From: a virus
Taxonomy: Duplodnaviria > Caudoviricetes
Reading direction: 5' to 3' (one strand)
Virus record (IMG/VR): IMGVR_UViG_3300025789_000006
Coordinates: 1 to 53,156 of that record
Length of the DNA stretch: 53,156 nucleotides
Shown piece after piece: positions 2,734 to 46,624 of the stretch. Each line of letters opens with the position of its first letter. The stretch's first letter is position 1. Position numbers and translations under genes: made by a program. The notes beneath the pieces are model-generated. The model had not been told where the DNA came from. It did not search any database and saw only the letters and a program-made list of their open reading frames with translations.

Positions 2734-2756
2734 GATCAGCCTTTCGTATTACTAAT

Positions 2757-3068
2757 TTAATTAGTAGTCGGTGCGTCGGTTGTAGGAACCTCAGCAGGCG
2801 CTTCAGTTGCTTCAGCAGGCGCCTCTGCGGCCTCCACAGGAGCTTCTTCAGCCACTGGGGCCTCTTCCACTGGTGCCTCAACAGCAGGCTCCTCTACGGG
2901 CGCTTGCACTGGTGCGGCAACAGGTTGAGAGGGAGGAGCCACCACTGCGTCTTTAGGTTGCATTGCCTCGTATTTGCCTTGCAAAAAGTCAATGAAACGG
3001 TGAATCTCTTCACTCACTTCAGAGTCAAATTCCTCAACATAAGTACGAATGTCGTTCAAAAATTGCAT
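2757..3068 (-). CDS. Hypothetical protein with acidic Ala/Pro/Glu tail
   Basis: AGGAG RBS; low-complexity EAP repeats. Confidence 0.7.
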   Translation of the reverse strand: MQFLNDIRTYVEEFDSEVSEEIHRFIDFLQGKYEAMQPKDAVVAPPSQPVAAPVQAPVEEPAVEAPVEEAPVAEEAPVEAAEAPAEATEAPAEVPTTDAPTTN

Positions 3069-11549: not shown

Positions 11550-13355
11550 TTAGCCTCTGCGCTTTTTCACAGGAGACATGGTCACAGATGTGATTGTCTT
11601 CGTGACGCTACCTTTTGGCGGCTTGCCTTCCAGAGGGCCCATCATTTTTGGCATATCGGACATGATTTTCTTGCCCAATCCACCCAACAATGCGGCTTTT
11701 CCACCTTTGGCATAGCCCTTGTGAACTTGGCTCATGGCTGTATCGTGGGCATCTTCAGCATCATCGGTGTGATAGTCGCCTTCCGTGAGGTGTTTGCCCT
11801 CAGGGTTAAAGAATTTCACGCGATGCTCGCCCCAGTCACGATCCTTGTACACCTTGGCTACATGGCCCTTAGGGCCGGTGTGGGTCTTAATCAAACGCAG
11901 ATTAGGTTTTTCTTGACCCCCATCTGCGTGGTGATGGACTTCGCCGCCCTTCTTAAAGGTTCCAGATTGCAAGCTGTTTGCCACAGGTTGGCTAACGAAA
12001 TGCTTGGGCATAGCCACAGGCTTGCCCATAGCATTCACATTACCCCCTGTGGCGTAGGCTTTTTTTGAGGCATGCCCTCCATGCTTATAGCCACCACCAT
12101 TAGCAAGCTTTACATCACCAGTTTTGGTGTTGGTTTTGCCTTTTGGAGTGGTGTCAGCAGGACGGTTTTCCCAATTGCCGCCTTCAACGGTGTCGCGTGT
12201 CTCGTACTTGTCGATTGCGCCGCCGTCAGCTTTGTGGTGCATCTTGTGATGAGCTTTGCCACCATGCTTGAAGCCACCTGCATTGCTCATGCGAACGCCG
12301 CCAGTGGCTTTGGAGCCGCTGAACTTGTCTGCAGTGTGCATGTCGGTGTCTTCGTAGTAGTGCTCATTGCCTTCAATGGTGCCACCCAAGCTGATCTTGC
12401 CGGAGTTCATGCTCTTCTTGGAGTCACTAGGGATAGTGTTTCCAGTAGAACCGCCTTCAGCAAAATGATGCTTTTTGTGAGCGTGACCGCCATGCTTATA
12501 GCCTGCGGCCTTACCCAACTTGACATCACCAGTCTTGCCACTGGTGTGATCGTGGTGCTCACCGTCGTGGATGTTGTTGACAAAGCGTTTTGCGTTGCCT
12601 TCAATGGTGGTTTTGGTTTCGTCGCGATCAATTTCGCCACCAGATGCATAGCTACCGCCCATGCACATCTTTTTGTGGTGAGCAAGCATGCGCTTGGCGT
12701 GAGCAGAACCGCCATCAGCCTTGCACATCTTTTCATAGTGCTTGCACATGGCTTTGTGGTGCTCATGAGAGCCCTCAGGATGACCAGAAGTCTTATGAAC
12801 TTTGCCACCGTGAGCGTGGTGAGCCATGCCACCATGCTTTTTGTGGTGAGCATGTGCCATGTCCAAAGCTTCGTGGTGGTGAAGTTCTTTTTCGAGCTTC
12901 TCGATCATCTTATGATCTGCAGAACCGCCCTTCTTCATGCCGCCAAGAGCTTTCTTGACCATCATGGCGCGAGCCATGCGTTGCTGAGGAGTCATTTGAC
13001 CCAAAGCCGCTTGACCCATAGGCTTCATGCCACCTGCAGGAGCACCCATTGCGCCGGGCATAGCACCGGGCATAGCGCCTCCCAAAGCCTTGTGAGCAAC
13101 TTTGCCACCCTTCTTGTACATCTGGGGGTTCATTGCCTTCACACGAGCCATCATGGAAGGCTTCTTGGGGGCCTTACCGGCCTCAGAAGCAAAAGCCTGA
13201 TGCATACCACCCATGGCATGGTGTTGCATAGCCTTGTGACCATGCTCAGAATGCTCTTTGTGGTGCTTGGCTTTGACTTTGCCACCTTTTTTGAGCTTCA
13301 AGGACACTGAAGGCTCATCGGTGTACATCTTCACCATTGGTTTGAATTCAGACAT
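11550..13355 (-). CDS. His/Lys/Gly-rich modular late protein (putative polyprotein)
   Basis: 601 aa, about 58 His, about 18-20 x-[AK]-x-G-G motifs and three internal repeats; GGAGG RBS. Confidence 0.85.
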   Translation of the reverse strand: MSEFKPMVKMYTDEPSVSLKLKKGGKVKAKHHKEHSEHGHKAMQHHAMGGMHQAFASEAGKAPKKPSMMARVKAMNPQMYKKGGKVAHKALGGAMPGAMPGAMGAPAGGMKPMGQAALGQMTPQQRMARAMMVKKALGGMKKGGSADHKMIEKLEKELHHHEALDMAHAHHKKHGGMAHHAHGGKVHKTSGHPEGSHEHHKAMCKHYEKMCKADGGSAHAKRMLAHHKKMCMGGSYASGGEIDRDETKTTIEGNAKRFVNNIHDGEHHDHTSGKTGDVKLGKAAGYKHGGHAHKKHHFAEGGSTGNTIPSDSKKSMNSGKISLGGTIEGNEHYYEDTDMHTADKFSGSKATGGVRMSNAGGFKHGGKAHHKMHHKADGGAIDKYETRDTVEGGNWENRPADTTPKGKTNTKTGDVKLANGGGYKHGGHASKKAYATGGNVNAMGKPVAMPKHFVSQPVANSLQSGTFKKGGEVHHHADGGQEKPNLRLIKTHTGPKGHVAKVYKDRDWGEHRVKFFNPEGKHLTEGDYHTDDAEDAHDTAMSQVHKGYAKGGKAALLGGLGKKIMSDMPKMMGPLEGKPPKGSVTKTITSVTMSPVKKRRG

Positions 13356-17498: not shown

Positions 17499-17960
17499 TT
17501 ACACATAGGCTTTGAACGAAAGCGGGTCATCAGTGACCTTAGCAATCAGTTCGTGGTCGTTAATCGTCATGAATAACACGGGTTCTTGAAACTCTTGGTC
17601 GGCTTCCGATGGGACATTGCGCTCCCAACGATCACCACCCCACTTTGGAACCCGTACAAAGTCACCAATCTCAGCCCATGAGCCCTCAGGCCATGGTTGC
17701 ATGGTGTCCCTGTTCTTGAAAGCAAGCGGCCCAATTGCCACGACCTTGCCGATCATGTTGTTCCACTTTTCGTTTTCTTTGGTTTCATCGACGATGATGA
17801 TGCGGCCTGCCTTCTTTTTGATTCGACGCAGTTGCACAATCACACGACCACCGTAAGGAGCTTGTCCTGCCGGTACATCAGGGAACGCCCATGCCATTTC
17901 TTCGGCGTTAGGCGCTCCTGATTGTCCCTCGATGGTAGGGATGTCTTTAATGTCACTCAT
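17499..17960 (-). CDS. GroES-like co-chaperonin
   Basis: PYGGRVIV, GKVVAIGP, EIGDFV and INDHELIA match the GroES fold. Start at MSDIK. Confidence 0.8.
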   Translation of the reverse strand: MSDIKDIPTIEGQSGAPNAEEMAWAFPDVPAGQAPYGGRVIVQLRRIKKKAGRIIIVDETKENEKWNNMIGKVVAIGPLAFKNRDTMQPWPEGSWAEIGDFVRVPKWGGDRWERNVPSEADQEFQEPVLFMTINDHELIAKVTDDPLSFKAYV

Positions 17961-18017
17961 TTTTAAATCTCCATCACCATATTTCAGGTGCATAAGCGCG
18001 CTTAATCAGCGCATTGG

Positions 18018-18197: not shown

Positions 18198-18367
18198 TTA
18201 TTCTTTTTGGTCACAGCATGTGCCAGACCGCCAGATTTTTTACCTTCAGAGGAAGATTGACTTCCACCCTTAGGTTGCATTGAAGTGCCGTCAAGTTTTT
18301 CGCCTTGAGCGATACGCTTGTGTTGCGGCACATCAATGGTTCTCTGTTCGTAATCAGATGTTGCCAT
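18194..18367 (-). CDS. Small basic protein (57 aa, not in ORF track)
   Basis: MATSDYEQRTIDVPQHKRIAQGE...KKSGGLAH...; AAGGAG RBS inside the end of the portal gene. Confidence 0.65.
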   Translation of the reverse strand: MATSDYEQRTIDVPQHKRIAQGEKLDGTSMQPKGGSQSSSEGKKSGGLAHAVTKKNK

Positions 18368-20831
18368 TTGGAGCTCCTTGTGGTTGAGGTTGTGGCCCTT
18401 GTGGGGCCGGTGGTGTCACAGGCATTTGAGGTACCTGTGCTTGAGCTTGAGCCGCTTGTCGAATCGTCTCATGCGTCATCTTGGCGTTCTCAATGGCAAT
18501 CTTAGTCTGATTGTCCATCTGAGCTTTTTGTTGATCCAGAGCCAAACGAGCCTGAGCCAGTTGAGCGTCTTGCTGATCTTTCTGGGTCTTGCGCTGTGTC
18601 TCAGCCATGCTTGTCTGCTGTACCACTTGTGCATCAGGTGGTATTGGAGGTGGCTTGGGTTGACTGCGCTCTTGAGCCATTTGAATGATCTTCTGGAACG
18701 ACGGCATCAAGTCACCAAACACATCATTGACATCCAACATCACATGGGCGCCAATGGTCGTGAAGACCTTGTCGATGGTCGGTGTGAGGTTCGGATTATC
18801 GTAGTCGTCAATTGGCTTGCCGGTCATCTCTTGCACATAGCCATTCGAGCGGTTCAAGTACCACAAGGTCATGTGCTGTTTCAAATGCTCGATCAAGTTG
18901 TTGAGGTATGCCGGGTCTGCAAATGGGTTTTGGCCCAAGAACGGATTCATAGCAAACTGCAAGTGGTCTTGAATGTGAGCAATGTGATCTTGTTGGATGT
19001 ACGCATAGGCTGACTGGCCCACGAGCATTGCCGCATTCTCATCTGCTGAGGTGCGTTGCTCAGGTGCAGGCACATCATTCATGATGTCGTTGATGTTGGG
19101 CACTTTCATTTGCTTGAGCATGCGAGCAATCACTGGCCCAATCTTGAACTGATCAGGGAACTGCTGTGCCAACTGCAACACTGCCTGAGACTGCGCCATG
19201 CGCTGAGTCTCAGAAAAAATGTTGGGATCAGACACCGGCTGTACATCGGTGTTCTTGGAGAAGTCTTCGCGCGTGATCTCAAGGTCAGACACGATGTCTG
19301 CTTTTTGCATGTCGTCAAAGTACCAACGGTTCAGGCGGCACAGAATCTTCAACACACGAGCTTGTGATGCATGCAGGCGCGCATGGATTGATGAGTAGAC
19401 TTGAGAGCCTTGCTCGATCAATGCTTGCGTGGTGCCCACAGGCGACTGTGCATTCACATCGGCAATCTTCTCTTCAGCCGTCGTGACCACAGAACTCGTG
19501 GCTTTGTCCAAGAAGCCAAGCAGTTGGAAGAGCACATCGCTTGGTGGGTTGAAGGGCATCGGCATAGCGATCTGCCGGATGTCTTGCACACCGGGCGCGC
19601 CTTCAATCTCAATGATCTGGGTTACATCGACCTGCTGAGACTGCCCACTAATCTTCGCGCCCTTGAGCTTAAGCATAGTAGCGGCGTTGTTAATGTGAGC
19701 ACTGTCCAGTAGAGCGCGGAGAGAGCCAGTAAGAGCGGCAGACAGACCGCCAATGAGATGAGGTAGGCCAATAGCGTAAGCACCGCGCCATGGAATGAAT
19801 TTGAACTCCACGACCCAGTCAAGTTTGGTGAGCGTCTCATCTGCTTCCTCCCAGTTGCGGTACAAACCAACGACCTCGTTGTCGAGCACATCAATCATCA
19901 AGATGTAAGGCGCGTTTTTGCCCTTGCTGTGCTTGTCTTCTTCGAGCTCAAGCCATGTGTAGATGTGATAGACGGTGCGAATGCCGTCCTTGTTCTCTTC
20001 GAACTGCTTGCCTTCAATCTTGTTGTTGGCCTTGGCTACCTTGCCTTCATCAATCGTGCCGGATGCCTGCACATAGTTGATGTCGCGGTACATGCCCGAC
20101 TTGATGCGGCGCTCGAACTCGAATTGGGTGATCTCGTGAATCTCAGCGGCGCGCTGTGCCGTGTAAAAGTTGGTTGCCGCAAAGGGCAGGATCACACGGT
20201 CAATCGGCAGGAACTCGATGCATGGACGCTTCTTGTCTTCGTCGTACCACAGTTTCATGTACTGTGAGCCGCCGAGTGGCAGTTGGGTCAGCAGTTGTTC
20301 TTGTTCGTCGCGGAACTCTTCGATCTGCTCAGTGATCTGCCAGTTGAGGTACTCGACCTTGCGATCTGCCACCGCCGTCTTGAGATCGTCAACCTTACCA
20401 ATGATCTTCGACTTGACCGGGCCATCTGGTGGAAAGAGCTCTTTGATTGCGCGAGCGGCAAAGTCAACGCAACCCTCAGCCATGGCAGGATGCACGACCT
20501 TAGAGGCTCCCATAAAGGTTGCACCTCCGGGGGCATCATTGCCCATACCAGTCCGTTTAATACCCTCTTCATATTGTTTGTCGCGCAGTTCTCGTGCCTG
20601 CTTATCGCTCTCAAGTAAGTCTAAGTAATTGAAGACGATGTCCGACAAAACACCGGGATCAACAGAGTCTGCTAGGTTGTCATAGAACTCTGGGTTGAAT
20701 TCTGGGCCATCGTCAATGTCAACAATGGCTGAACCGTCTGGCAATTCGTCAGTGTCGAATGCAGGCATGTCCATCACAGCGGAGCCGTCTTCTTGCTCTT
20801 GAATGTTTAGGTCGTCGTCTTTTTCAGCCAT
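18354..20831 (-). CDS. Portal protein
   Basis: 825 aa downstream of terL with a long Gln-rich C-terminal barrel-like helix, as in podoviral portals. Confidence 0.88.
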   Translation of the reverse strand: MAEKDDDLNIQEQEDGSAVMDMPAFDTDELPDGSAIVDIDDGPEFNPEFYDNLADSVDPGVLSDIVFNYLDLLESDKQARELRDKQYEEGIKRTGMGNDAPGGATFMGASKVVHPAMAEGCVDFAARAIKELFPPDGPVKSKIIGKVDDLKTAVADRKVEYLNWQITEQIEEFRDEQEQLLTQLPLGGSQYMKLWYDEDKKRPCIEFLPIDRVILPFAATNFYTAQRAAEIHEITQFEFERRIKSGMYRDINYVQASGTIDEGKVAKANNKIEGKQFEENKDGIRTVYHIYTWLELEEDKHSKGKNAPYILMIDVLDNEVVGLYRNWEEADETLTKLDWVVEFKFIPWRGAYAIGLPHLIGGLSAALTGSLRALLDSAHINNAATMLKLKGAKISGQSQQVDVTQIIEIEGAPGVQDIRQIAMPMPFNPPSDVLFQLLGFLDKATSSVVTTAEEKIADVNAQSPVGTTQALIEQGSQVYSSIHARLHASQARVLKILCRLNRWYFDDMQKADIVSDLEITREDFSKNTDVQPVSDPNIFSETQRMAQSQAVLQLAQQFPDQFKIGPVIARMLKQMKVPNINDIMNDVPAPEQRTSADENAAMLVGQSAYAYIQQDHIAHIQDHLQFAMNPFLGQNPFADPAYLNNLIEHLKQHMTLWYLNRSNGYVQEMTGKPIDDYDNPNLTPTIDKVFTTIGAHVMLDVNDVFGDLMPSFQKIIQMAQERSQPKPPPIPPDAQVVQQTSMAETQRKTQKDQQDAQLAQARLALDQQKAQMDNQTKIAIENAKMTHETIRQAAQAQAQVPQMPVTPPAPQGPQPQPQGAPNGNI

Positions 20832-20833
20832 GA

Positions 20834-21025
20834 TTATCCTTTATTGCCTGAGTGCTTGTGCTTGGCTCGTGCAAGACTTTTTAAATTTAAGCCTTTGTGT
20901 GCCTTATGCGCATCAGGGCTGTGCAAGTGATGCTTGTGCTTGACATGGTCTTCAGGGTCATTGTGGTGCTCCAGTCCATGGAACTGGGCATAAAAATGAT
21001 GTGAGTCTAGTTTCTTCTTGCTCAT
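20834..21025 (-). CDS. Small His-rich protein
   Basis: 63 aa with 14 His, ATGA-coupled to the upstream gene. Confidence 0.6.
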   Translation of the reverse strand: MSKKKLDSHHFYAQFHGLEHHNDPEDHVKHKHHLHSPDAHKAHKGLNLKSLARAKHKHSGNKG

Positions 21026-22779
21026 ACTTCCCATCCTTCGTCATTTGATTTTTCTCTAGGCGCAGGCTCTTGTGGTTGGATATGCACCGTTCTGTTCTGC
21101 GGTATTGTCTCACCCAACTTAGGCTTGCCAGTCTTTGCCGATATCTCAGTGGTCGGCACACGGGCATACCTGCCGTCTTCTTTCTTCATCAACTGTGGAT
21201 CGTACTTCACAAAGAATCCGTTAGAGTCAATGTGAGCGTTGCCTTTCTCACCGATGGCCTTCTTGTTCTTAAGGCCCACGATCACGCCATGCTCGCCCTC
21301 AGGCTGAATGTCCAGTGGTCGGAAGTCATGGCTGTCACCGTTGATGACCTTGAACACTTTGCCAGTCTCATGATCAACGATCTGGTGGGGCAGATGCTCA
21401 TTGTGTGTGAAGGCCATCGCCACATTGTCGCCACCCTCCAACCGACGGCGCATCTGCTTCCAGTTGCTGTGTGGATTGTGGACATCTTGATCGCTCACAC
21501 CAGTGCTTGAGTAAGTGTAGTGGTGGTTGGGCGCGATGGGGTTGGTGTTGTTCTTGGTGTAGTCATAGAAGGTCACATCAGGGTGACCGTTGATGATGGC
21601 CTTGTGGACTCGTGGATTGATGTCCGACAGCACATTGAGGCGCACACCTAAGTGGTTGTTGTTCTGTGCCGCAATCGCTTTGGCGTCCTGAATCTCATCG
21701 TACAGCTTGACAGCAAACGAGTGAGGGTCGTTGATCATCGCCAAGGTCTTGTTGAGACTGTTCAGGCGTGGGCCCTTAAACTCTTCAAGGTTGGTACCGC
21801 CACCCAGTTTGAAGTAGTTGCCTGAGGTCTTGCCTAAGCACTCTTCCTTACACGATGCTGAGTTGGGGCAGGTGTTGAACTTGCCTTGACCAAACGCAGG
21901 AGCCAATGCCAGACCAGTCGTCTCGACACCGCGCCCATCGGGAAGCTTGATGGCCTCCTCGCCGCCCTTCTCAGACTTGATGAGCTTGGCGTTCTTGCCA
22001 AGCAAGTCCTTGGGCTTGTTGTCGCTTGTGCGGCCTACATGGTTGGACACCATCTCAGCGGCTCTCACGCTGTTCATCATGCGGTGATGTGCAGGCAGTG
22101 CCAAGTGATGAGCAATCGCCTCATCGAAGGCGCGAGCCAGACTGGCGATGCTTGGGCTACCGGCGTCATAGGGTGTGAAGCCATTGGGGGTCTTCACTGC
22201 ACCTTGAGTCGCAGGCATGATATTGAATACACGGCGCTTTGGTGGCTGACCACCATCACCCATGTGAGGAAAAGCATCACGGGCTTTCTTCTTCAGGAGC
22301 TCAAGTCGCATTGCACCACCTGAGGCCATGCCGGGCGCGGCTCCAGTGGCAGGTGCAGGAGGTGGGGCCATAGCCGCCAGAGCTTGGCCTTGAGGCGTCA
22401 TTTGAAGCATGTTGCCCATCTGTGCAGGAGCTCCACCGCTTGGGCCAGTGGGCGCGCCACCGGGAGCAGGAGGAGTGCCGGGCGTCGCACCGGGAGCACC
22501 GGGCTGACCGGGCTGAGGTTGACCGGGCACAGGTGCAGGGATTGGATTGAGTTGTTGACCGGGCTGTTGGGAGTTGGTGTCCACGCCACCGATTGGCATG
22601 CCTTTGTTGGTCGCTACGCCACCGATTGATGGGATGCCACCAATTGCTTTGGGGTTGGGGTTGACGAACATCTTGGGCTCCATGTCCAGAGCTTCATTCA
22701 CGCCGATGCTGTCCATGAGGTCGGGGTTTCTGTGCTGTGCCAGATTGACGCGCATCTGCGCTAGTGATGGGGTGTCCAT
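21022..22779 (-). CDS. Gp88-like (radical-SAM-related) protein with Pro/Gly-rich N-terminal leader
   Basis: CPNSASCKEEC (Cx5Cx3C), VRLNVLSDI, FYDYTK, YTYS, INGDSHDFRPLD and IVGLK motifs. Confidence 0.75.
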   Translation of the reverse strand: MDTPSLAQMRVNLAQHRNPDLMDSIGVNEALDMEPKMFVNPNPKAIGGIPSIGGVATNKGMPIGGVDTNSQQPGQQLNPIPAPVPGQPQPGQPGAPGATPGTPPAPGGAPTGPSGGAPAQMGNMLQMTPQGQALAAMAPPPAPATGAAPGMASGGAMRLELLKKKARDAFPHMGDGGQPPKRRVFNIMPATQGAVKTPNGFTPYDAGSPSIASLARAFDEAIAHHLALPAHHRMMNSVRAAEMVSNHVGRTSDNKPKDLLGKNAKLIKSEKGGEEAIKLPDGRGVETTGLALAPAFGQGKFNTCPNSASCKEECLGKTSGNYFKLGGGTNLEEFKGPRLNSLNKTLAMINDPHSFAVKLYDEIQDAKAIAAQNNNHLGVRLNVLSDINPRVHKAIINGHPDVTFYDYTKNNTNPIAPNHHYTYSSTGVSDQDVHNPHSNWKQMRRRLEGGDNVAMAFTHNEHLPHQIVDHETGKVFKVINGDSHDFRPLDIQPEGEHGVIVGLKNKKAIGEKGNAHIDSNGFFVKYDPQLMKKEDGRYARVPTTEISAKTGKPKLGETIPQNRTVHIQPQEPAPREKSNDEGWEV

Positions 22780-22809
22780 TATTCCTCCGATGATTTTCTA
22801 TCAATTATC

Positions 22810-23079
22810 CTATGCGGATTGCTTGCCGTCCACCGGCAATTGGGGCACCGGTTGTCCCCCTGACAGACTCCGAGACTCTCGCAACTCCTCTTGCTCTTTG
22901 CGCCACTTGATCCACTCACGCAGTTGTTGGACGGCGAGTTGCTCCCAGATTTCTGTGCGGTCTTGGACGCTGATCTCGAACCGGTTTTCGCAGACCGTGG
23001 TGCGCACTCCATCGAGGTGCATGACGCGTTTGTAGGTGCCATCTCGTTGTTCATAGTACAAGTAGTCTTCATCTGCCAT
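22810..23079 (-). CDS. Hypothetical protein
   Basis: 89 aa with AGGAG RBS, between terL and the Gp88-like gene. Confidence 0.65.
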   Translation of the reverse strand: MADEDYLYYEQRDGTYKRVMHLDGVRTTVCENRFEISVQDRTEIWEQLAVQQLREWIKWRKEQEELRESRSLSGGQPVPQLPVDGKQSA

Positions 23080-23149
23080 GCTGTCTCCTCTCTGGTTGAT
23101 ACTAATTAAATTAGTAGGTAGAAACCCTTACTAATTAAATTAGTAGTGG

Positions 23150-24583
23150 TCATTGCGAATAAGGGTTTTGACGCCCCTTCATGTTGTAAATCTCTGCGTC
23201 ACTGATGTCATCGGGTTCGAGCTCCTCACGGGGGCCGGGATCAATGCTGATCCACCCGGCGTCCCTCAAGTACCGCAGGGCCTGACTGATGCAGTCCACG
23301 AACTCATCATGGATTGTGCCCTCAGGGAATGAACAGATTTGTGACACCATGCCCTCGGCCCAGTCACGCACGAAGCCGGGGGTCTTGGAGCTCTCAGGCA
23401 CCCAGACGCGCCCTGCCTTGATGATGTTGGCGACGATGGACAGGCGCTGTATCTTGTCGGCCCGTCCGGGGTTGTAGGGCATGACCGGCAGGTGGGCGCG
23501 CTGTAAGTCTTGGATCAGGGAGATGCCTGCGCTCTTGTCTTCGATCAGGATCAGGTCAACGAGCTTGCGGGTCTTGCCTTCACCGTAGACCACCTCGAAC
23601 TCGCTCATGATCTTGGGGCGCAGGTCAGGGTACTGCAGGTGCTCTTGCCAACAGTCGATGATAAGCACCGACATGGCTCCGTCCTCTGGGCGATAGACGC
23701 CAAGGGTCATGTGGCCCGTGGGGTCGTTGTGGGTTTTGTCCGAGGTAGCGCAGTCCACCGACTGGATGATGTACTCGAACTTGGGGAAGGGCTTGTCTTT
23801 GGGCCAGAGCCTAAACCACTCACGGCGAACGATGCCGCCTTCCTCAGGGTCAATGATCTCAGCGTGAATCTCCTGCCTGCCGAGGTTGGTGCCCTCGTAC
23901 TGCAAAATCTGCTTCTGGAAGGAGGGCGCAAGGTTGTCCTTGTTGATGTAGGTCGATGCCTTGGTGATCACCACATCGTCGTTCTCACGGCTCAAGAGCT
24001 CCATGATCAGGGGTTTGGGCTTGGGCGTCGTGGTGGCGATGATGCGGGTTCGTTGGCCCAGACGCACCGCGAATTGAATCTGATCCCATGCGGCCTGCAG
24101 GTCATCGTAGGCGGCGAGCTCATCGAGCCATGCGCCATGCCACTGACCACCACGGAAACGCTCCGGCTCCGATGCCGGGATGCCCTTGATGAATGAGCCA
24201 TTGATGAGCCTGAGCTCGTGCAGGGCTTTGTTGTAGTCCTCGATCAGGGAAGGTGGGCACACATTGAGCAGGCCAGAGTCACCTTCGAAGCAGGTGCCAC
24301 GGATGTCGCCTGATGTGGGCGCGGAGACGAGCCATCGACTGCCGGGCATATCCCATGCCCACTCAAGTAGCGTCTCAGTGGCGGCGCGGGTCTTGCCGGC
24401 TCCACGGCCTGCGAGCATGAGCCAGATGTTCCACCATTCGCCTGCAGGCTCAATCTGGTGCTTGTGGGCGCCCTTCATCCACTTCATGCGCCAATTGATC
24501 ACCGTCTGGGCAATATTCGTCCGTTGGGCGTAATCCTCTTTGAGGGTGTCTTCGTCGTCAAGGATAAGGTCTACAACACTCAT
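23150..24583 (-). CDS. terL: Terminase large subunit
   Basis: Walker A GRGAGKT, Walker B WLDE, coupling motif TTTP, nuclease IEDKSAG and HDEFVD. Confidence 0.95.
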   Translation of the reverse strand: MSVVDLILDDEDTLKEDYAQRTNIAQTVINWRMKWMKGAHKHQIEPAGEWWNIWLMLAGRGAGKTRAATETLLEWAWDMPGSRWLVSAPTSGDIRGTCFEGDSGLLNVCPPSLIEDYNKALHELRLINGSFIKGIPASEPERFRGGQWHGAWLDELAAYDDLQAAWDQIQFAVRLGQRTRIIATTTPKPKPLIMELLSRENDDVVITKASTYINKDNLAPSFQKQILQYEGTNLGRQEIHAEIIDPEEGGIVRREWFRLWPKDKPFPKFEYIIQSVDCATSDKTHNDPTGHMTLGVYRPEDGAMSVLIIDCWQEHLQYPDLRPKIMSEFEVVYGEGKTRKLVDLILIEDKSAGISLIQDLQRAHLPVMPYNPGRADKIQRLSIVANIIKAGRVWVPESSKTPGFVRDWAEGMVSQICSFPEGTIHDEFVDCISQALRYLRDAGWISIDPGPREELEPDDISDAEIYNMKGRQNPYSQ

Positions 24584-24900
24584 ACGGGCTTGATGATGGC
24601 GTAGGGTTCATTGGTGCGCTTCTGGGCGTCCTCGATGGCGTGGAGGTCTTCCAGAATCTCTCTGTTGACCACAATCAGGTCACGATCAAATAGCCAACTC
24701 TCGATCACATTGGTCGAGTCCTTGCCCCACATGAATACGGGCCAGAGGTACAGGCGAATGCGAAAACGCCAAGAGATGAGCATGTGGGTGTGAGTGTGAT
24801 ACCAGACCCACCGGAAGGTCACATAGGGCTTGCGCCATGTGCCAAGCGTGATATTGAGGCCAACACGGGCTATGCGGCCCTCAGGTGTGTACTTAATCAT
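24580..24900 (-). CDS. Hypothetical protein between terS and terL
   Basis: 106 aa, ATGA-coupled on both sides. Confidence 0.6.
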   Translation of the reverse strand: MIKYTPEGRIARVGLNITLGTWRKPYVTFRWVWYHTHTHMLISWRFRIRLYLWPVFMWGKDSTNVIESWLFDRDLIVVNREILEDLHAIEDAQKRTNEPYAIIKPV

Positions 24901-25397
24901 TCTGCTTGCCTTTGCATCTTGATGGCCTTCAAGAGCTCGCCAAACACGCCGAGGTTGTGTTCATGCACCACTGGGCTCTCGTCGTCTCCTGAGTGAATTG
25001 TGCGGTCACCATACTTCTTGGGCTTGAGCTTCATGGCTGTCCACTTCCGGGCCTCAATGCGTTGCTTCTGGTAGGCCACATAGCCGGAGTCGATCTTCAG
25101 GTCGATGACATTGCCGTCCTTGTCCTTGATCTCAAGCATCTCAGGCTTTTCGTCAGCGATGGCGACGATTTCGTCAGCGTGGGTGTCAGCCTGCTCCTCC
25201 CGCGCGCGTGTGTAGTTCTCCGCAAACTCCTTGTGGCGCAACAACCATTCGTACACTGTGGACTGCACAGGATATCCCTCCTCCATGCATATCCGTCTCA
25301 GAGACTCCCCCATAGATAGCCTCTGGCATATCTTGTTGGCTATCTCTTCACTGTATGTGGATGGAGCTCCCACCTTGTTCTTTGTCTTGGTCGTCAT
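24897..25397 (-). CDS. terS: Terminase small subunit
   Basis: GAPSTYSEEIANKIC...GESLRRIC HTH and RIEARKW...PKKYGD, typical of Sf6-like TerS. Confidence 0.9.
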   Translation of the reverse strand: MTTKTKNKVGAPSTYSEEIANKICQRLSMGESLRRICMEEGYPVQSTVYEWLLRHKEFAENYTRAREEQADTHADEIVAIADEKPEMLEIKDKDGNVIDLKIDSGYVAYQKQRIEARKWTAMKLKPKKYGDRTIHSGDDESPVVHEHNLGVFGELLKAIKMQRQAE

Positions 25398-29949: not shown

Positions 29950-30005
29950 CACTTTTTAAAAATATTTTCTAAGGAAAACCCTAATGTTGCTTTTACGCTA
30001 CTAAT

Positions 30006-30278
30006 TTAATTAGTAGTCAGGAACTTAAACACATGCCGGATGGTCACATTCAGGGCATCGAGCTGATCCATCTTGGCAATAGCCCACGCGCGCTTGTTCC
30101 CATGCCATCCCATGTTCGAGCCTTGGTGGCAGGACTTGCAGAGGGCCACCACCGTAAAGTGCTCACCTTGCTCGATGTGGTGTGCATCACTGGGCCCCGG
30201 CTGTCCACAGACTGAGCAGGGCTGTTCTTTGACGAGCCCCACCCACTTCTTTTCAAGCGTGTCGTAACTGCCGTTCAT
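30006..30278 (-). CDS. HNH-like Zn-binding nuclease (Ref/DUF968-like)
   Basis: CSVC...DAHHI...VALCKSCHQG. Confidence 0.75.
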   Translation of the reverse strand: MNGSYDTLEKKWVGLVKEQPCSVCGQPGPSDAHHIEQGEHFTVVALCKSCHQGSNMGWHGNKRAWAIAKMDQLDALNVTIRHVFKFLTTN

Positions 30279-37333: not shown

Positions 37334-38133
37334 TTTTTGGCTTTCAGTTTGTCATTTTCTTTTTGAAGTTTCTTGACCATTTTCACGGCCTCGTTGCGCT
37401 CATTCATGAGTCCATGAAGGCGTGTCTCTAGTTGAGCATTCAAGTAGTTCAGGCGCTTGATTTCTTCGTGTGCTGTCGCCAGTGCATCGTCTGAGTCCAA
37501 GAGCTTGTACATGGCCTCTTGGTCAGCAATCAGCGCCAACTCTGCCGCCTTGATTTCCTCGTCTGAGGGCGCCTCACCGGCGTAGGGATTTTCCCTATCT
37601 GTTGGTTTTTCACTACTAATTAAATTAGTATTTTGTTTCTCTTGAATCTTCTTCTCGAAGTGCTTCTTGACGCTCTCTGCCTGCTTCTTTTTGCGCTCTG
37701 GGTCACGCACTGAAGCCACAAAGGGCTGAGATACCACGCAGATTTTGGCGATCTCGTAGTTGCTCTTGTCCTTGAGCAGTGGGTTGTTAATGGCGTTCTC
37801 AACACTGCGCTCTTTGTCGGCCCGTGTGCGAGCTCTACCGTGTTTGCCGTTGGCGCCGTATGAGTCCACTTGGGCATCAAACTGCGAGCCGGGCAAATAG
37901 TTGACATTGATTTCCTTCACGCCAAGTTGCTTGTACGCAAGGTAGCGATGGAAGCCATCTGATAGCCAGTGGTGCGAACCGTCAAAGCGTGTCTCAATCG
38001 GGTCGTACTCCATGTCATTCTTCAGATCGTCAACGATCTTCTGAATCCAGTTGGCGTCCATCTCTACTCTTGATTGGGTGTCTCCATCGATCCTCACGGT
38101 GTTGATGGGTACCAATTTCAGCGTTCTTTTCAT
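37330..38133 (-). CDS. ParB-like N-terminal domain protein with HTH and coiled coil
   Basis: LSDGFHRYLA ParB/Srx motif, NGKHG, and SNYEIAKICVVSQPFV HTH. Confidence 0.8.
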   Translation of the reverse strand: MKRTLKLVPINTVRIDGDTQSRVEMDANWIQKIVDDLKNDMEYDPIETRFDGSHHWLSDGFHRYLAYKQLGVKEINVNYLPGSQFDAQVDSYGANGKHGRARTRADKERSVENAINNPLLKDKSNYEIAKICVVSQPFVASVRDPERKKKQAESVKKHFEKKIQEKQNTNLISSEKPTDRENPYAGEAPSDEEIKAAELALIADQEAMYKLLDSDDALATAHEEIKRLNYLNAQLETRLHGLMNERNEAVKMVKKLQKENDKLKAKK

Positions 38134-41716: not shown

Positions 41717-43036
41717 CTACTTAGTCCAAGAGTCTGGTAAATGGCTCGCGCCCCACTTCTTGATTTCGGGCCAATTCTCATAAACATCATGCGCAAGGAC
41801 ACCGGCACCGGCTAACCCACCGGCAACGGCTGTCCCTGCCGCAATCTCAGGTGCCATAAGACCTGCCGCCGCAACCATAGGAGCGGCTTGTGCAAGACCG
41901 CCAAGCCCACTTACAGCGTGTTTGATGGCTCCAGTGGTGTCACCACCATGCCAAGCATCAGCGGCTTGTCCAAACTCATATGGAGCCGCTAGAGCCGCCG
42001 CAGGGCCACCATACTTCCTGATCAAGCGTCCACCGCTTTCCACGATGTCGCCAAGCATGGAACCCTTCGTCGCAATATTCTCAAGTCTTTGAGCGTTTGC
42101 AGGATTCATCTCTGCCGTGTTGGCGTTAAGGTTGCCCGTCTGTTGGGCTGACTTGCCAGTCAATCGGCTGACTTCTTTGCCTGTTGCTTGTGCGTTAGCT
42201 TTGGCGGCTTCCAACCGTTGAGTTGCGGCGTCACGCTGAGGCTGAATCTTGATCTCGGCCTTTGCCTTGGCGTCAGCCACCTTTTGCTCATAGGCAAGTT
42301 TGTCAGCCTCGGCTTTGTCCAATGCGGCTTGTTTGCGCTCCATCTGAGCCTTTTGCGCCGCAGGGTCAAGGGCCAACCCAGTCTCTTTCTCTATCGCTGT
42401 GCCGGGGGCAATTTCCTGAGTACGCAAAGAAGCCGCTTCATTCGCAGGAATGACGACTTTTTGTGTGTGCGACATGCTTGGAGAAGTTTTGTCAAATTCG
42501 TTTGGAACAAACTTGCCTTCATAGTTTTCTACTCCGGGGCCACCCTCGTGGCTGAATTCCAATTTGACCGGCTCCTTGGGTGGAGGCTCAGGCAGATCGG
42601 CAGGATCAATGTTCTTGTTCAGAGCTTCTTCGCTGTGCCAAAACTTGTGACCCAGTTCAGCTTCTGCCAATTCAGCCTCATTGGGCGCATGGTTCAAGAT
42701 AGCTTGATCAAGCGCTTTGTTGGTGTTGCGCACATTGATTGCATTGTTGCGAGCCGCATCAGGAATCATCGTTGCCTGATTGATTTTGTGAGCGGCATAG
42801 CCTGCGGCGCCACCACCCAAAACCTCACCAATGCCGGGGCCACCGCTAGGCGCCTGTTGATCTACTTTGATGGTGCCATAGTTCATCTCAGGCAAGCCTT
42901 TATAGCCTGCATCTGCGTTTCCTTGAGGCTCTTTGCGCACAACCTCTTCATTAGGCGCTAAGGCTTTTTTTTCCTCGCCATCTGCAGGAGTTTCTGCTCC
43001 ATAAATATCATTTAAGCCTGAAGAATACTTACCCAT
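41717..43036 (-). CDS. Internal virion (ejection) protein
   Basis: 439 aa, Ala-rich helical, Cys-free, with Gly/Ala hydrophobic segments; last gene of the late operon. Confidence 0.6.
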   Translation of the reverse strand: MGKYSSGLNDIYGAETPADGEEKKALAPNEEVVRKEPQGNADAGYKGLPEMNYGTIKVDQQAPSGGPGIGEVLGGGAAGYAAHKINQATMIPDAARNNAINVRNTNKALDQAILNHAPNEAELAEAELGHKFWHSEEALNKNIDPADLPEPPPKEPVKLEFSHEGGPGVENYEGKFVPNEFDKTSPSMSHTQKVVIPANEAASLRTQEIAPGTAIEKETGLALDPAAQKAQMERKQAALDKAEADKLAYEQKVADAKAKAEIKIQPQRDAATQRLEAAKANAQATGKEVSRLTGKSAQQTGNLNANTAEMNPANAQRLENIATKGSMLGDIVESGGRLIRKYGGPAAALAAPYEFGQAADAWHGGDTTGAIKHAVSGLGGLAQAAPMVAAAGLMAPEIAAGTAVAGGLAGAGVLAHDVYENWPEIKKWGASHLPDSWTK

Positions 43037-44999: not shown

Positions 45000-46621
45000 T
45001 ATTTTCTCCCACCGGGCAAGCCGCCAAGATGACGAGTTGACCTGCATCCAATACTGCCACCGCCTTTAGCGCTTACTAAACCACCTTCAGCGCAACCTTT
45101 GAACCAACATTTGACATCGCACAAAAGGTTAGAACAGCATGCAATACCTTTAATGAGTCCGGCACCTGCCGCCAATCCAGACAGAGGTGACATGCACATC
45201 GTTGTCTTGACACTGGTAGGAATCTGCGCGCCCTGCAACAAGCTTGAAAGCTTGGACAAGGTCGTGAATGGATAGCATTGTTGGTTTTGCTTGATGGTCT
45301 GGCATTGAGCACCCAGAGTCGCCAAAGCGTTGATACAAGCCAGATTCTGACCTGCCGCTTGTACGCCAAGAGAACCCATGCCTTGACCTGCCGCTGTGAG
45401 CGCGCGAGCCTGTTCTGCCGCCATCGTTCCGGCTGTTTGGCCTGCCTGCAGATTGGCTGTGTTGAAGCCCTGTTGAGCATTTGCCGCAGTAGAGCCCAAG
45501 TTTGCCGCAATTTGATTTGCCGCAGTTTGCTGTTGGCCCAAAGTGCCACCGGCGTTGATCAAGTTTTGCATCTGAGATGCAGTCAATTGACCTGTAGTGC
45601 CACCCAAAGTACCCAACAAGTTTTGTTGTTGTTGAGCCAATGAACCTGCAGTTTGACCTGCTTGCAACGCTGTAGATGCGCACTTTGCCGCCAAGCAACC
45701 AGTGGTGCCTGCCAAGCCTGCAAGCAAGCTTTGTTGCTGTTCGCCCAATGTACCGGCAGTCTGACCAAGCCCTGCGCAAATCTGTTGTTTCTGGCCTGCG
45801 GCAGTAAGAGCTTGACCGTAGCCTTGGTTTTCCATGTTGGCGATCTGACTGTTCAAGCATTGCATTGCGTTGGCCTCAACTTGGCCCAACACTTGAGCAC
45901 CACGCTGAGAACCAAATTGACCTGAGCCAACAGCCGCCGCAGTGGCTTGAGGAGCCAAATTCTGCTGAATGTTGCGGTTAGCAATGTCTGACATGTTTTG
46001 CACAGCAGACTGCAAATAAGGGCTCATGTAAGACTGAGCCAACTGAGCAGTGCAAGTGCCTGATACTTTGTTCAAGTAAGGCTGTGCCGCGCATAAACCG
46101 CCTCTTGAAGCGGCCTTGCAAATCAATCCTTGTGCTGTGCCTAAAATGTTTGTACCAAGAGCTTTGCTCAAATCAGGTTGAGCCGCGCATAGACCACCTT
46201 TAGCCGCCGCTTGTTGAATGTATGGGCTCGCCGCACCTGCCGCACACAATGCTGTGCCTTTGGCAATGTCAGGAGTTGCCGCCTGCACACCAGTGGTAGC
46301 CATGGCCTGATTGGCATATGGCTGAAGGGTTGACAGTGGGTTGGTGCTCGTGCCTGCGGTCAGGAAAGGAGCCGCAGAACCGGTGATGTTCTGTTTAGCC
46401 GCGCATCCCAACAAATTTTGAGCAGTTGCAAAGTTGCCCTGTTGGGCTCCAAAGTTTGTCGCGGCCTTACAAAAAGCCTCTTGTTGCAGGGGTTGAGCCC
46501 CTACGAACTGTGCGCCACACTGTGCCTGCTGACCTTTGGTTGCTAGGTTTTGAAGGTAGTTCGTGTAATACGACGGCGCACAGGTCGATTTATTTTGTGA
46601 GGACTGTAGTAAGTTTGCCAT
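44999..46621 (-). CDS. Gln/Ala/Gly-rich internal virion (ejection) protein, Cys-substituted
   Basis: 540 aa with YMSPY and GQFGSQRG DNA-transfer-like motifs, 23 scattered Cys and a terminal CAEGG. Confidence 0.7.
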   Translation of the reverse strand: MANLLQSSQNKSTCAPSYYTNYLQNLATKGQQAQCGAQFVGAQPLQQEAFCKAATNFGAQQGNFATAQNLLGCAAKQNITGSAAPFLTAGTSTNPLSTLQPYANQAMATTGVQAATPDIAKGTALCAAGAASPYIQQAAAKGGLCAAQPDLSKALGTNILGTAQGLICKAASRGGLCAAQPYLNKVSGTCTAQLAQSYMSPYLQSAVQNMSDIANRNIQQNLAPQATAAAVGSGQFGSQRGAQVLGQVEANAMQCLNSQIANMENQGYGQALTAAGQKQQICAGLGQTAGTLGEQQQSLLAGLAGTTGCLAAKCASTALQAGQTAGSLAQQQQNLLGTLGGTTGQLTASQMQNLINAGGTLGQQQTAANQIAANLGSTAANAQQGFNTANLQAGQTAGTMAAEQARALTAAGQGMGSLGVQAAGQNLACINALATLGAQCQTIKQNQQCYPFTTLSKLSSLLQGAQIPTSVKTTMCMSPLSGLAAGAGLIKGIACCSNLLCDVKCWFKGCAEGGLVSAKGGGSIGCRSTRHLGGLPGGRK

Positions 46622-46624
46622 GAT

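What the first reader, a model, noticed from the sequence alone, without database searches (positions are those of the whole stretch)
21022..22779. Gp88-like radical-SAM-related enzyme fused to a GG-motif leader inside the packaging operon
Seen: a disordered Pro/Gly/Gln leader, then MASGG and HMGDGG, then a domain with Cx5Cx3C, RLNVLSD and FYDYTK, encoded between terL and portal. Known: Gp88-type proteins are predicted Fe-S/radical-SAM-related enzymes of unknown substrate. Inference: this is a packaged, injected enzyme (DNA/RNA modification or anti-defence). A weaker alternative is that it modifies the Cys-rich proteins, as thioether-forming RiPP radical-SAM enzymes do.
Basis: partly seen in the sequence, partly recalled or inferred. 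Interest (0 to 1): 0.72.

Follow-up and report, generated by a model that had tools for sequence, protein, structure and literature searches.

The report
Minimal GP88 enzyme in polyvalent-protein slot
A phage gene between the DNA-packaging motor and the head portal encodes the stripped-down form of a highly variable multi-module protein that is probably carried in the virus particle. Its constant part is an unstudied cysteine-cluster enzyme whose predicted fold looks like radical-SAM enzymes.

Summary
ORF 21022..22779 (-) encodes 585 aa with a disordered P/Q/G region, MASGG (151-155), HMGDGG (172-177), Cx5Cx3C (C304/C310/C314), RLNVLSD and FYDYTK, and it lies between terL and portal. It matches Pfam GP88 (E 1.1e-19).

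The gene sits in a hypervariable slot. In 35 of 35 loci with a portal at least 76% identical, the slot holds a 585-1843 aa protein with the same about 75-aa junction motif and P/Q linker. Most end in a GP88-like domain. N-terminal modules vary (ART-PolyVal, ASCH, PcfJ), and some proteins carry PBECR5 instead of GP88. The window holds the minimal form: relatives about 93% identical in DNA carry 789-nt and about 1-kb module insertions.

GP88-like domains also occur inside 2000-4008 aa proteins with LPD38, InPase and ART-PolyVal. This is the published "polyvalent protein" pattern, so virion packaging is inferred, not shown.

The radical-SAM link rests on fold only. The top 23 of 23 structural matches are radical-SAM enzymes, but Z is at most 6.1, and there is no sequence match and no CX3CX2C motif.

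A module delimiter, A-x-G-G, is sevenfold enriched (148 observed against 21 expected). The RiPP reading has no support.

The parts
21022..22779 (-). Whole ORF of 585 aa: the minimal slot protein (junction + linker + tail remnant + GP88 domain)
22555..22779 (-). Junction motif, residues 1-75 (MDTPSLAQMR...NPDLMDSIGVNEA...GMPIGGVD...QQPGQQL). It is conserved in all near relatives, where it is usually internal.
   Evidence: H25/MW202545 shows 53% identity over residues 4-69.
22330..22554 (-). P/Q/G-rich disordered linker, residues 76-150
   Evidence: pLDDT below 50; alignment A1
22249..22329 (-). MASGG delimiter, then AMRLELLKKKA (resembles the C-terminal tail ...TMRLALTKKKAK of other slot proteins), then HMGDGG delimiter; residues 151-177. 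A relative carries an insertion of about 1 kb (about 340 aa) just upstream of this segment.
21055..22194 (-). Folded C-terminal enzyme domain, residues 196-575 (helical N-extension plus beta/alpha core); model pLDDT 92.7, pTM 0.90
21259..21996 (-). Pfam GP88 (PF17338) match, residues 262-507
21838..21870 (-). Cys triad C304-x5-C310-x3-C314. In the model it lies in the loop after beta-strand 1. It is invariant across the family.
20834..21034 (-). His-rich small ORF (66 aa; likely 63 aa from the ATG that overlaps the upstream TGA as ATGA). Its motif HHFYAQFHGLEHH is fused in frame to the C-terminus of GP88 domains in other homologs.
22810..23079 (-). Conserved 89-aa gene between terL and the slot gene. 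It is present in 34 of 35 near loci. The overlapping Cys-rich 97-aa frame (22779..23072) is an alternative frame.
23150..24583 (-). Large terminase
18354..20831 (-). Portal protein (825 aa)

Best explanation
The gene is the minimal allele of a hypervariable 'polyvalent protein' slot that this phage lineage keeps between terL and portal. The protein has four parts: (i) an about 75-aa junction motif; (ii) a disordered P/Q/G linker, which together with the junction acts as a lineage-specific adaptor; (iii) a short remnant bounded by two A-x-G-G delimiters; and (iv) a C-terminal GP88-family enzyme domain. That domain binds a metal cluster through three invariant cysteines on the loop after beta-strand 1 of a radical-SAM-like beta/alpha core. 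It is followed by a translationally coupled His-rich tail protein. I infer that the protein is made late with the head genes, is built into the capsid through the adaptor, and leaves with the DNA, so the enzyme is present in the host from the first moment of infection. I infer that its substrate is nucleic acid, most likely the incoming phage DNA (lesion reversal or protective modification in the manner of spore photoproduct lyase), and that it uses Fe-S/SAM radical chemistry. Shown here: the architecture, the slot, the module variability, family membership, the invariant residues and the fold resemblance. Inferred: packaging and ejection, Fe-S/SAM chemistry and the substrate.
For: Family membership. 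Pfam GP88 matches at E 1.1e-19. C304, C310, C314, R380, N382, Y407, K409, T422 and S424 are invariant across distant members.

Fold. The domain model has pLDDT 92.7 and pTM 0.90. With VIA-align against 48,161 chains, rows 1-23 for the domain model and rows 1-16 for the full model are all radical-SAM enzymes (ChlB, PFL-AE, spore photoproduct lyase, NifB, viperin, QueE and others), at Z 4.5-6.1, rmsd 4.2-5.9 over 158-211 residues. The Cys triad lies between beta1 (284-290) and the first long helices, which is where radical-SAM enzymes bind their cluster.

Slot. In 35 of 35 loci with a portal 76-100% identical, a junction-bearing protein of 585-1843 aa lies between terL/orf89 and the portal. Of 28 unique proteins, 5 carry the window-type GP88 domain, 22 a divergent GP88-like domain and 1 PBECR5.

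Polyvalent hallmarks in relatives. These include ART-PolyVal, ASCH, PcfJ, LPD23, LPD38, InPase and HATPase. GP88-like domains occur inside proteins of up to 4008 aa. Iyer et al. 2017 (PMC5512222; passages read) predict that such phage proteins in portal-terminase contexts are packaged and injected.

Minimal allele. Relatives about 93% identical in DNA over terL-orf89 differ only by clean module insertions of 789 nt and about 1 kb. P0001 is 98% identical but has a further 178-aa N-terminal ART-like module.

Needed early. Stand-alone GP88 is gene 2-3 at the left end of Autographiviridae genomes. In phage Sansa it lies beside two methyltransferases and a helicase.
Against: There is no direct evidence of packaging. 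No virion proteome exists for any relative found, and the only named relative is an uncultured genome. No prohead protease or known capsid-targeting element was found.

The radical-SAM link is weak. All Z values are below the tool's caution line of 8. Foldseek against the PDB gave no hit at E 0.001 or better; the best was a GH89 TIM barrel at E 0.019. HMMER found no radical-SAM or DUF5131 match among 48 members at E up to 5, none in NCBIfam, and no radical-SAM enzyme among PDB sequences at E up to 10 (only a nanobody VHH, a portal protein and one uncharacterised protein).

The motif is Cx5Cx3C, not CX3CX2C. It lacks the usual aromatic residue before the third Cys, and the divergent subtype has an insert of about 13 residues before the third Cys. 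No GGE-type SAM motif is recognisable, so a structural Zn site is equally compatible.

An oxygen-labile cluster would have to survive in free virions. The window protein itself has only one recognised catalytic domain, so strictly it is not 'polyvalent'.
Confidence: 0.55

Rival explanations
1. The enzyme is late and cytoplasmic and is not packaged. It is expressed with terminase and portal and modifies or repairs phage DNA just before or during packaging. The junction and linker would tether it to the packaging machinery and would not load it into the capsid.
For: The gene lies between terL and portal in one operon. In other phages GP88 lies beside methyltransferases and a helicase.
Against: Relatives fuse the same adaptor and GP88 to ART-PolyVal, PBECR5, ASCH and PcfJ. 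The GP88 domain also occurs with InPase and LPD38 in Tunturi_5 gp272 and in giant proteins that lack the junction. These are modules described for delivered polyvalent proteins (PMC5512222). Stand-alone GP88 genes are earliest genes in T7-like phages, not late genes.
Confidence: 0.2
2. The protein is a structural minor head or portal-accessory protein, analogous to MuF, with a Zn-binding cysteine knuckle. The GP88-like domain would be the constant anchor and the N-terminal modules the effectors.
For: 27 of 28 unique slot proteins keep a GP88-like domain while the N-terminal modules vary. The Tunturi_5 homolog is annotated 'minor head protein'. No SAM motifs are recognisable.
Against: GP88 exists as a stand-alone early protein in podoviruses and inside giant proteins that lack the junction (0 of 34 proteins of 2000 aa or more have it). 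L031 and 10 of 24 long junction-bearing proteins lack GP88 altogether. Polar residues at the C-terminal ends of the beta-strands (R380, N382, Y407, K409, T422, S424) are invariant across the family, with D406, D485 and R487 nearly so, and this pattern looks catalytic. The Tunturi annotation has no stated basis, and the protein's other domain is InPase.
Confidence: 0.12
3. A RiPP-like radical-SAM maturase that modifies a peptide or protein of the phage. Candidates are the His-rich tail encoded downstream and the Cys-rich 860-aa protein.
For: RiPP maturases (ChlB, SuiB, CteB, SkfB, TigE) are among the structural matches. A small His-rich ORF is coupled to the gene and is fused to it in other homologs. 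The phage encodes a protein with 141 Cys. A-x-G-G motifs recur in those proteins.
Against: The RiPP enzymes tie with many non-RiPP radical-SAM enzymes at Z 4.5-6. No RRE, SPASM/twitch or C39 peptidase match was found. Stand-alone GP88 genes in other phages have no such partner genes. The GG motifs delimit large folded modules. The Cys-rich gene is 24 kb away.
Confidence: 0.05

Closest known systems
Pfam GP88 (PF17338) / PHROG 1617, an uncharacterised phage family
   Same: The match is above the curated cut-off. The Cys triad, the R-x-N motif, the Y-T-K motif and the T-x-S motif are shared with stand-alone members at 27-33% identity.
   Different: Typical members are stand-alone proteins of about 230-270 aa encoded among early or DNA-metabolism genes. 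Here the domain has a helical N-extension of about 65 aa and a C-extension of about 70 aa. It is fused to an adaptor and is encoded in the head-assembly operon.
Polyvalent proteins of phages and conjugative elements (Iyer, Burroughs, Anand, de Souza & Aravind 2017, PMC5512222)
   Same: The context is a portal-terminase phage. Close relatives carry ART-PolyVal, PBECR5, ASCH, PcfJ and LPD23, and more distant GP88-bearing proteins carry InPase and LPD38. Module shuffling is extreme between near-identical phages.
   Different: The GP88 domain is not named in that paper's main text (0 occurrences of Gp88, radical SAM, Gp37 or DUF5131). Its supplementary files could not be read. The window allele has a single catalytic domain. 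The junction motif and the A-x-G-G delimiters are not described there (0 occurrences of 'linker' or 'glycine').
MuF-effector fusions (Mu F/gp30, SPP1 gp7) and T4 Alt or internal proteins with a capsid-targeting sequence
   Same: The proposed logic is the same: a constant head-association element joined to variable enzymatic cargo that is released into the host with the DNA (passages of PMC5512222 read).
   Different: There is no MuF match. The adaptor lies upstream of the cargo and is intrinsically disordered. The gene lies before the portal gene, not after it. No maturation protease was found.
Radical-SAM superfamily, especially spore photoproduct lyase and DUF5131 (Gp37/Gp68)
   Same: The predicted beta/alpha core superposes on SPL (4fhc, Z 5.9-6.1), PFL-AE, ChlB and others. 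Three Cys lie on the loop after beta1. RadicalSAM.org lists DUF5131 in megacluster 5-2 and SPL in megacluster 5-3 of the superfamily (PMC9477430, passage read). One GP88 homolog is annotated 'Gp37/Gp68-like'.
   Different: The motif is Cx5Cx3C instead of CX3CX2C. No sequence-level match exists and no SAM-binding motif is recognisable. That DUF5131 has a similar C-x6-7-C-x2-C motif is my recollection and comes from no call.
Virion polyprotein processing at Gly-Gly-X sites (adenovirus protease, ASFV pS273R); recalled, not checked in a paper here
   Same: Short G-G motifs preceded by a small or hydrophobic residue mark boundaries between modules of virion proteins.
   Different: No protease of any kind was identified in this genome, and cleavage is untested. 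The resemblance is only a lead.

Membership tests
Pfam GP88 (PF17338) | HMM score above the gathering cut-off (24.4 bits) | tested here: met
   71.6 bits, E 1.1e-19, residues 262-507 on profile positions 5-219 of 230; 73.9 bits.
Pfam GP88 (PF17338) | Conserved Cys triad and core motifs shared with stand-alone members | tested here: met
   C304, C310, C314, R380, N382, Y407, K409, T422 and S424 are invariant in 11 sequences, including proteins from pelagiphage, Mesorhizobium, Xanthomonas, Limnohabitans and Caulobacter phages.
Radical-SAM superfamily | CX3CX2C (or an accepted variant) binding a [4Fe-4S] cluster on the loop after beta1 | tested here: inconclusive
   The canonical spacing is absent. 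The spacing here is Cx5Cx3C, and the divergent subtype has about 17 residues before the third Cys. The position after beta1 fits. Cluster binding cannot be tested with these tools.
Radical-SAM superfamily | Sequence-profile match (Pfam Radical_SAM PF04055, DUF5131 PF07505, or NCBIfam rSAM models) | tested here: not met
   0 of 48 members match at E up to 5. NCBIfam gave only a chance-level HpnR hit at E 0.079 for 1 of 10 proteins. A PDB profile search found no rSAM enzyme at E up to 10.
Radical-SAM superfamily | Partial (beta/alpha)6 TIM-barrel core | tested here: inconclusive
   Rows 1-23 (domain model) and rows 1-16 (full model) are all rSAM enzymes, but Z is only 4.5-6.1 with rmsd 4.2-5.9 over 158-211 residues. 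Foldseek found nothing at E 0.001 or better.
Radical-SAM superfamily | SAM-binding motifs (GGE, ribose motif, GxIxGxxE) | tested here: inconclusive
   None is recognisable by eye in alignments A1 and A3. No residue-level structural alignment was available.
Polyvalent proteins (Iyer et al. 2017) | Two to fifteen disparate effector domains in one polypeptide | tested here: not met
   The window protein has one recognised domain. Its relatives meet the criterion: ART-PolyVal+GP88, ART-PolyVal+ASCH+GP88, PcfJ+GP88, InPase+GP88, and LPD38+HATPase+ART+GP88.
Polyvalent proteins (Iyer et al. 2017) | Encoded in a portal-terminase phage next to virion genes | tested here: met
   The gene lies between terL and portal on the same strand. 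The same slot is used in 35 of 35 near loci.
Polyvalent proteins (Iyer et al. 2017) | Delivered into the host with the DNA | not testable with these tools
   This needs virion proteomics or an ejection assay.
RiPP radical-SAM maturases | RRE leader-binding domain and/or SPASM/twitch auxiliary-cluster domain, with an adjacent precursor peptide and a leader peptidase | tested here: not met
   No such Pfam match was found in the window protein or in 48 relatives. The downstream His-rich ORF is fused to the enzyme in other homologs, which is unlike a precursor peptide.
MuF-type minor head proteins | Phage_Mu_F domain | tested here: not met
   No MuF match was found in any of the slot proteins scanned.

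The most novel reading that the evidence does not exclude
This lineage loads a radical-SAM-type Fe-S enzyme into its capsid and co-injects it with the genome. The enzyme is part of a polyprotein-like cassette system in which every module is bounded by an A-x-G-G delimiter followed by a '(P)S-L-A-Q-M-R' helix. The delimiters would be proteolytic release sites, comparable to Gly-Gly-X processing of eukaryotic virus core polyproteins, and the junction and helix motifs would be capsid-targeting tags. The enzyme would then repair or protectively modify the entering DNA before any phage gene is expressed.
Probability: 0.15. Interest if true: 0.85.

Novelty: new variant of a known kind. Interest (0 to 1): 0.6.

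Why it matters
GP88 is a widespread phage family with no known function. The scan has flagged it in at least 141 other genomes. The literature searches for PF17338, 'gene product 88', 'GP88 domain' and DUF7227 found no paper containing any of these terms.

Placing GP88 as the near-constant cargo of a hypervariable slot gives a concrete hypothesis that can be tested: the enzyme is needed at the moment of DNA entry. The slot also carries ADP-ribosyltransferase, RNase and other counter-defence modules. The placement also adds a new domain to the catalogue of polyvalent proteins.

The lineage-specific adaptor and the A-x-G-G delimiters offer a way to study how cargo is loaded into capsids. The delimiters coincide with gene boundaries and with indel breakpoints between near-identical phages. 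They also bear on whether such proteins are processed like polyproteins. If Fe-S/SAM chemistry were confirmed, I know of no earlier example of a virion-delivered radical-SAM enzyme; that statement is from recall, supported only by the search.

Tried and rejected
1. Junction-portal binding. Complex prediction with the portal (alignment A4) and residues 1-140 of the slot protein returned 'no answer' (score 0.01, mark 0.32). This is no evidence either way.

2. Sequence links to solved structures. phmmer and a profile search against PDB sequences gave only chance hits: a VHH, a portal low-complexity tail, and 3v68 at E 2.3.

3. Foldseek against the PDB found nothing at E 0.001 or better. Foldseek against BFVD returned only GP88 and DUF7227 phage proteins.

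4. The ESM Atlas feature search, with PF17338 excluded, gave scores of 0.88-0.89, below the 0.9 line. The nearest clusters were unnamed viral clusters and DUF7227.

5. NCBIfam gave no match.

7. Are the A-x-G-G delimiters conserved DNA recombination sequences? I rejected this. The codons at the sites are mixed synonymous codons (Ala GCC 0.39, GCT 0.29, GCA 0.27; Gly1 GGT 0.58, GGC 0.29, GGA 0.12; Gly2 GGA 0.34, GGC 0.33, GGT 0.28), so selection acts on the protein.

8. Is the delimiter a general feature of GP88-bearing giant proteins? Only weakly: 139 observed against 104 +/- 10 expected in 62 proteins.

9. A programmed frameshift joining the GP88 ORF to the His-rich ORF is not needed. The ATG overlaps the TGA as ATGA with an AAGGA upstream, which is ordinary translational coupling.

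10. A prohead protease that could cut at G-G was not found. Ten structural-module ORFs searched in PHROGs and ten further ORFs searched in Pfam gave none.

11. The Cys-rich 97-aa ORF 22779..23072 is an alternative frame of the conserved 89-aa gene, which is found in 34 of 35 near loci.

12. Literature. There were 0 papers for PF17338. The only DUF5131 paper is RadicalSAM.org. The mixed search found 0 occurrences of 'gp37 gp68', 'gene product 88', 'gp88 domain' or 'duf7227'. The 'polyvalent protein' + 'radical SAM' search listed 2 papers that I did not open. The 'Gp88' + 'mycobacteriophage L5' search listed 6 papers that I did not open.
Full report
OBSERVATION. The window is a complete 53,156-bp virus genome with direct terminal repeats. 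ORF 21022..22779 on the minus strand encodes 585 aa and has a strong ribosome-binding site (GGAGGAATA-ATG). It lies in one co-oriented block:
- small terminase, 24897..25397 (Sf6-type)
- large terminase, 23150..24583
- a conserved 89-aa gene, 22810..23079
- this ORF
- a His-rich 66-aa ORF, 20834..21034
- the portal, 18354..20831
- a GroES-like gene and a scaffold-like gene

The region is rich in P, G and Q and is predicted disordered (pLDDT below 50 for residues 14-124, 139-155 and 171-192). MASGG is residues 151-155 and HMGDGG is 172-177. The cysteine motif is C304-x5-C310-x3-C314. RLNVLSD is 380-386 and FYDYTK is 404-409. Pfam GP88 (PF17338) matches residues 262-507 at E 1.1e-19, and PHROG 1617 (unknown function) matches at 6.2e-32.

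THE GP88 DOMAIN. A 48-sequence alignment (A1) shows 17 invariant positions, among them R380, N382, S385, D386, F404, D406, Y407, K409, N418, H419, T422 and S424. The three Cys are at least 90% conserved. I then aligned the domain with stand-alone GP88 proteins of about 250 aa from named phages: pelagiphage HTVC120P, Mesorhizobium Lo5R7ANS, Xanthomonas Xoo-sp13, Limnohabitans DC31, Caulobacter Sansa and Tunturi_5. The three Cys, R380, N382, Y407, K409, T422 and S424 remain invariant at 27-33% identity. The family therefore has a metal-binding triad and a polar, catalytic-looking constellation.

AlphaFold2 models residues 196-585 with pLDDT 92.7 and pTM 0.90. Two long N-terminal helices precede a beta/alpha core in which the Cys triad sits on the loop after strand 1 (284-290). 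The invariant polar residues sit at the C-terminal ends of the following strands.

Foldseek against the PDB found nothing at E 0.001 or better. An exhaustive VIA-align pass over 48,161 chains gave only moderate scores (best Z 6.1), but the ranking is one-sided. Rows 1-16 for the full model and rows 1-23 for the domain model are all radical-SAM enzymes: spore photoproduct lyase, PFL-activating enzyme, ChlB, NifB, viperin, QueE, LipA, MoaA, Cfr, anSME and others. Unrelated TIM barrels appear only below them.

No sequence method supports the link. Pfam scans of 48 members at E up to 5, NCBIfam, and PDB sequence and profile searches all failed to connect GP88 to radical SAM. The canonical CX3CX2C motif is absent. 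'Radical-SAM-like' is therefore a fold-level lead, and I put the chance of genuine Fe-S/SAM chemistry at roughly 40%. DUF5131 (Gp37/Gp68) is listed inside the radical-SAM superfamily, in megacluster 5-2, with spore photoproduct lyase in 5-3 (PMC9477430, passage read). One GP88 homolog is annotated Gp37/Gp68-like. I could not test that relationship.

THE SLOT AND ITS RELATIVES. A word-indexed search found 574 homologs, with the best 120 ranging from 342 to 1018 aa, and all 120 carrying PF17338. The longer ones add N-terminal ART-PolyVal, PcfJ or other modules. P0001 is 98% identical to the window protein but has an extra 178-aa ART-like N-terminus.

An exhaustive search with residues 240-585 found 1122 representatives at E 0.001 or better. 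Of the 259 GP88-positive proteins retrieved are 1200 aa or longer and the longest has 4008 aa. In these giants the domain lies mid-protein with LPD38, ART-PolyVal, HATPase, InPase or PcfJ. These are marker domains of the 'polyvalent proteins' of Iyer et al. 2017 (PMC5512222). That paper predicts such proteins are packaged in portal-terminase phages and delivered with the DNA (passages read). Its main text does not mention GP88, and its supplements could not be read.

I fetched 80 viral loci through the portal and analysed them with scripts.
- In L003-L037 (35 loci, portal 76-100% identical), every locus has a 585-1843 aa protein between terL/orf89 and the portal. Each carries the junction motif MDTPSLAQMR...NPDLMDSIGVNEA...GMPIGGVD...QQPGQQL and a P/Q linker.
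- Of 28 unique proteins, 5 have the window-type GP88 domain. Another 22 have a divergent GP88-like domain: Pfam matches only profile positions 27-106 (E 2.3e-6 to 4.8e-3), and hhalign to the window type gives E 0.003 over 222 columns with the same motif order. One (L031) has a PBECR5 nuclease instead.
- A further search with the junction alone found 24 proteins of 1043-1941 aa. Two are window-type, 12 are divergent-type and 10 have neither. Among those 10, the precomputed Pfam lists show PBECR5, PcfJ, ART-PolyVal or PF26151.
- The only named relative, uncultured genome MW202545, has the same synteny.
- In the 44 more distant loci L039-L082 (portal about 61-67% identical), the slot holds one or two ORFs of 500-2000 aa with no detectable junction or GP88. 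In the samples scanned they carry PcfJ, ART-PolyVal or LPD23.

The terL-portal interval is thus a dedicated slot for polyvalent proteins in this group.

THE WINDOW ALLELE IS THE MINIMAL ONE. DNA comparison shows 93% identity with L004 and L035 through terL and orf89. L004 and L035 then carry 789 nt (the ART-like module) that the window lacks, ending 9 nt upstream of the window's start codon. L035 has a second insertion of about 1 kb, between residues 137 and 150 of the window protein. The segment AMRLELLKKKA after MASGG resembles the C-terminal tail (...TMRLALTKKKAK) of other slot proteins. This suggests the GP88 module was appended to a once-complete frame.

THE GG MOTIFS. A-x-G-G, with consensus [K/M/F/L/Y]-A-x-G-G-x-V, occurs 148 times in 32 slot proteins (33,135 residues). 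Shuffles give 21.2 +/- 4.4, with a maximum of 33 in 200 shuffles. In the 22 unique proteins where modules precede the junction, a G-G lies 0-10 residues upstream. It is A-x-G-G in 21 and S-K-G-G in one.

The same kind of delimiter (x-x-G-G, as A-x-G-G in only some of them) precedes the His-rich tail motif where that tail is fused (P0130, P0145, P0189, P0205, P0216 and P0121). In the window, the corresponding boundaries are gene boundaries: the ORF start, and the ATGA overlap with the His-rich ORF. The indel breakpoints also fall next to delimiters. Codons at the sites are mixed, so the constraint acts on the protein and not on the DNA. The N-terminal part of the junction ('S-L-A-Q-M-R') recurs as partial matches at protein N-termini, after other delimiters and near C-termini.

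The motif is much less enriched in the giant GP88 proteins (139 against 104). It recurs in other unassigned proteins of this phage, notably 13 times in the 601-aa His/Lys/Gly-rich ORF 11550..13355. My best guess, at about 35%, is that these are release or cleavage sites of a polyprotein-like system. No protease was found.

HOW IT MOST LIKELY WORKS. Shown here: family membership, the invariant Cys triad and polar residues, the fold resemblance, the slot, the adaptor, the module variability and the delimiters.

Inferred: the protein is made with the head proteins and incorporated into the capsid through the junction and linker. It leaves with the DNA, possibly after cleavage at A-x-G-G. It then acts at once in the host.

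The timing argument has some independent support. In T7-like podoviruses, stand-alone GP88 is gene 2 or 3 at the leading end of the genome. That is the other way to have an enzyme present first.

The substrate is unknown. Three observations point to nucleic acid:
- The neighbours in Sansa are two methyltransferases and a helicase.
- Earlier scan notes, which I did not test, report repeated pairing with Ogg2-type glycosylases and a fusion to a GcrA-type HTH.
- Spore photoproduct lyase is among the top structural matches.

I commit to lesion reversal or protective modification of the incoming phage DNA as the most likely role, with low confidence.

RIVALS. The alternatives are a late cytoplasmic enzyme that is not packaged (0.2), a structural Zn-binding head accessory (0.12) and a RiPP-type maturase (0.05). 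Their evidence is set out in the Rival explanations section.

VERDICT. The finding is a new variant of a known kind: a polyvalent-protein slot with an uncharacterised, possibly radical-SAM-like, constant domain and a previously undescribed adaptor and delimiter syntax. Interest is 0.6.

Noticed in passing
window 46625-49207 (-): An 860-aa protein has 141 cysteines. The N-terminal ~480 aa are almost pure Cys-rich repeats, including runs of CCCDTCCCDMCCCD. A Lys-rich stretch follows, then a C-terminal part with two DG(D/E)YV...ALG(D/Q)G repeats and seven A-x-G-G motifs. It has no Pfam match.
   Followed up: partly
window 11550-13355 (-): A 601-aa His/Lys/Gly/Met-rich low-complexity protein lies in the structural module. 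It has 13 A-x-G-G motifs (HHAMGG, HKADGG, HFAEGG and others) and repeated KHGG/KKGG. It has no Pfam match; PHROGs matches only residues 491-544.
   Followed up: partly
window 20834-21034 (-): A His-rich 66-aa ORF is translationally coupled (ATGA) to the GP88 ORF. It is present downstream in all 6 loci with the window-type GP88 domain and in none of the other 29 near loci as a separate gene. Its motif (HHFYAQFHGLEHH) is fused to the C-terminus of GP88 domains in other homologs and in the divergent type.
   Followed up: partly
window 2750-2766, 23100-23116, 23129-23145, 29999-30015, 37614-37630: A 17-bp palindrome, TACTAATTTAATTAGTA, occurs at five sites against 0 expected in shuffles. Two copies lie in the terL-orf89 intergenic region, just upstream of the slot operon. 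It is a candidate operator, promoter or terminator element.
   Followed up: partly
window 17499-17993 (-): A GroES/Cpn10-like 164-aa gene lies between portal and scaffold (Pfam E 4.4e-4, just under the cut-off; phrog_3188). phmmer with it matched an ORF downstream of the portal in most of the 80 portal-related loci.
   Followed up: no
L031:3373-8001: A relative's 1542-aa slot protein has the junction at 1076-1143, followed by a PBECR5 nuclease instead of GP88. P0278 and P0279 are similar. Several non-GP88 slot proteins end in a conserved ...TMRLALTKKKAK tail.
   Followed up: partly
L083 (Tunturiibacter phage Tunturi_5, gp272-gp273): A jumbo-phage InPase+GP88 fusion of 445 aa, annotated 'minor head protein', lies next to a 1489-aa NUDIX + ART-PolyVal + GNAT protein.
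   Followed up: partly
window 41717-53085 (-): A run of seven large ORFs (142-860 aa) has no Pfam match at all. It includes a 540-aa Q/A/G-rich protein at 44999-46621.
   Followed up: no
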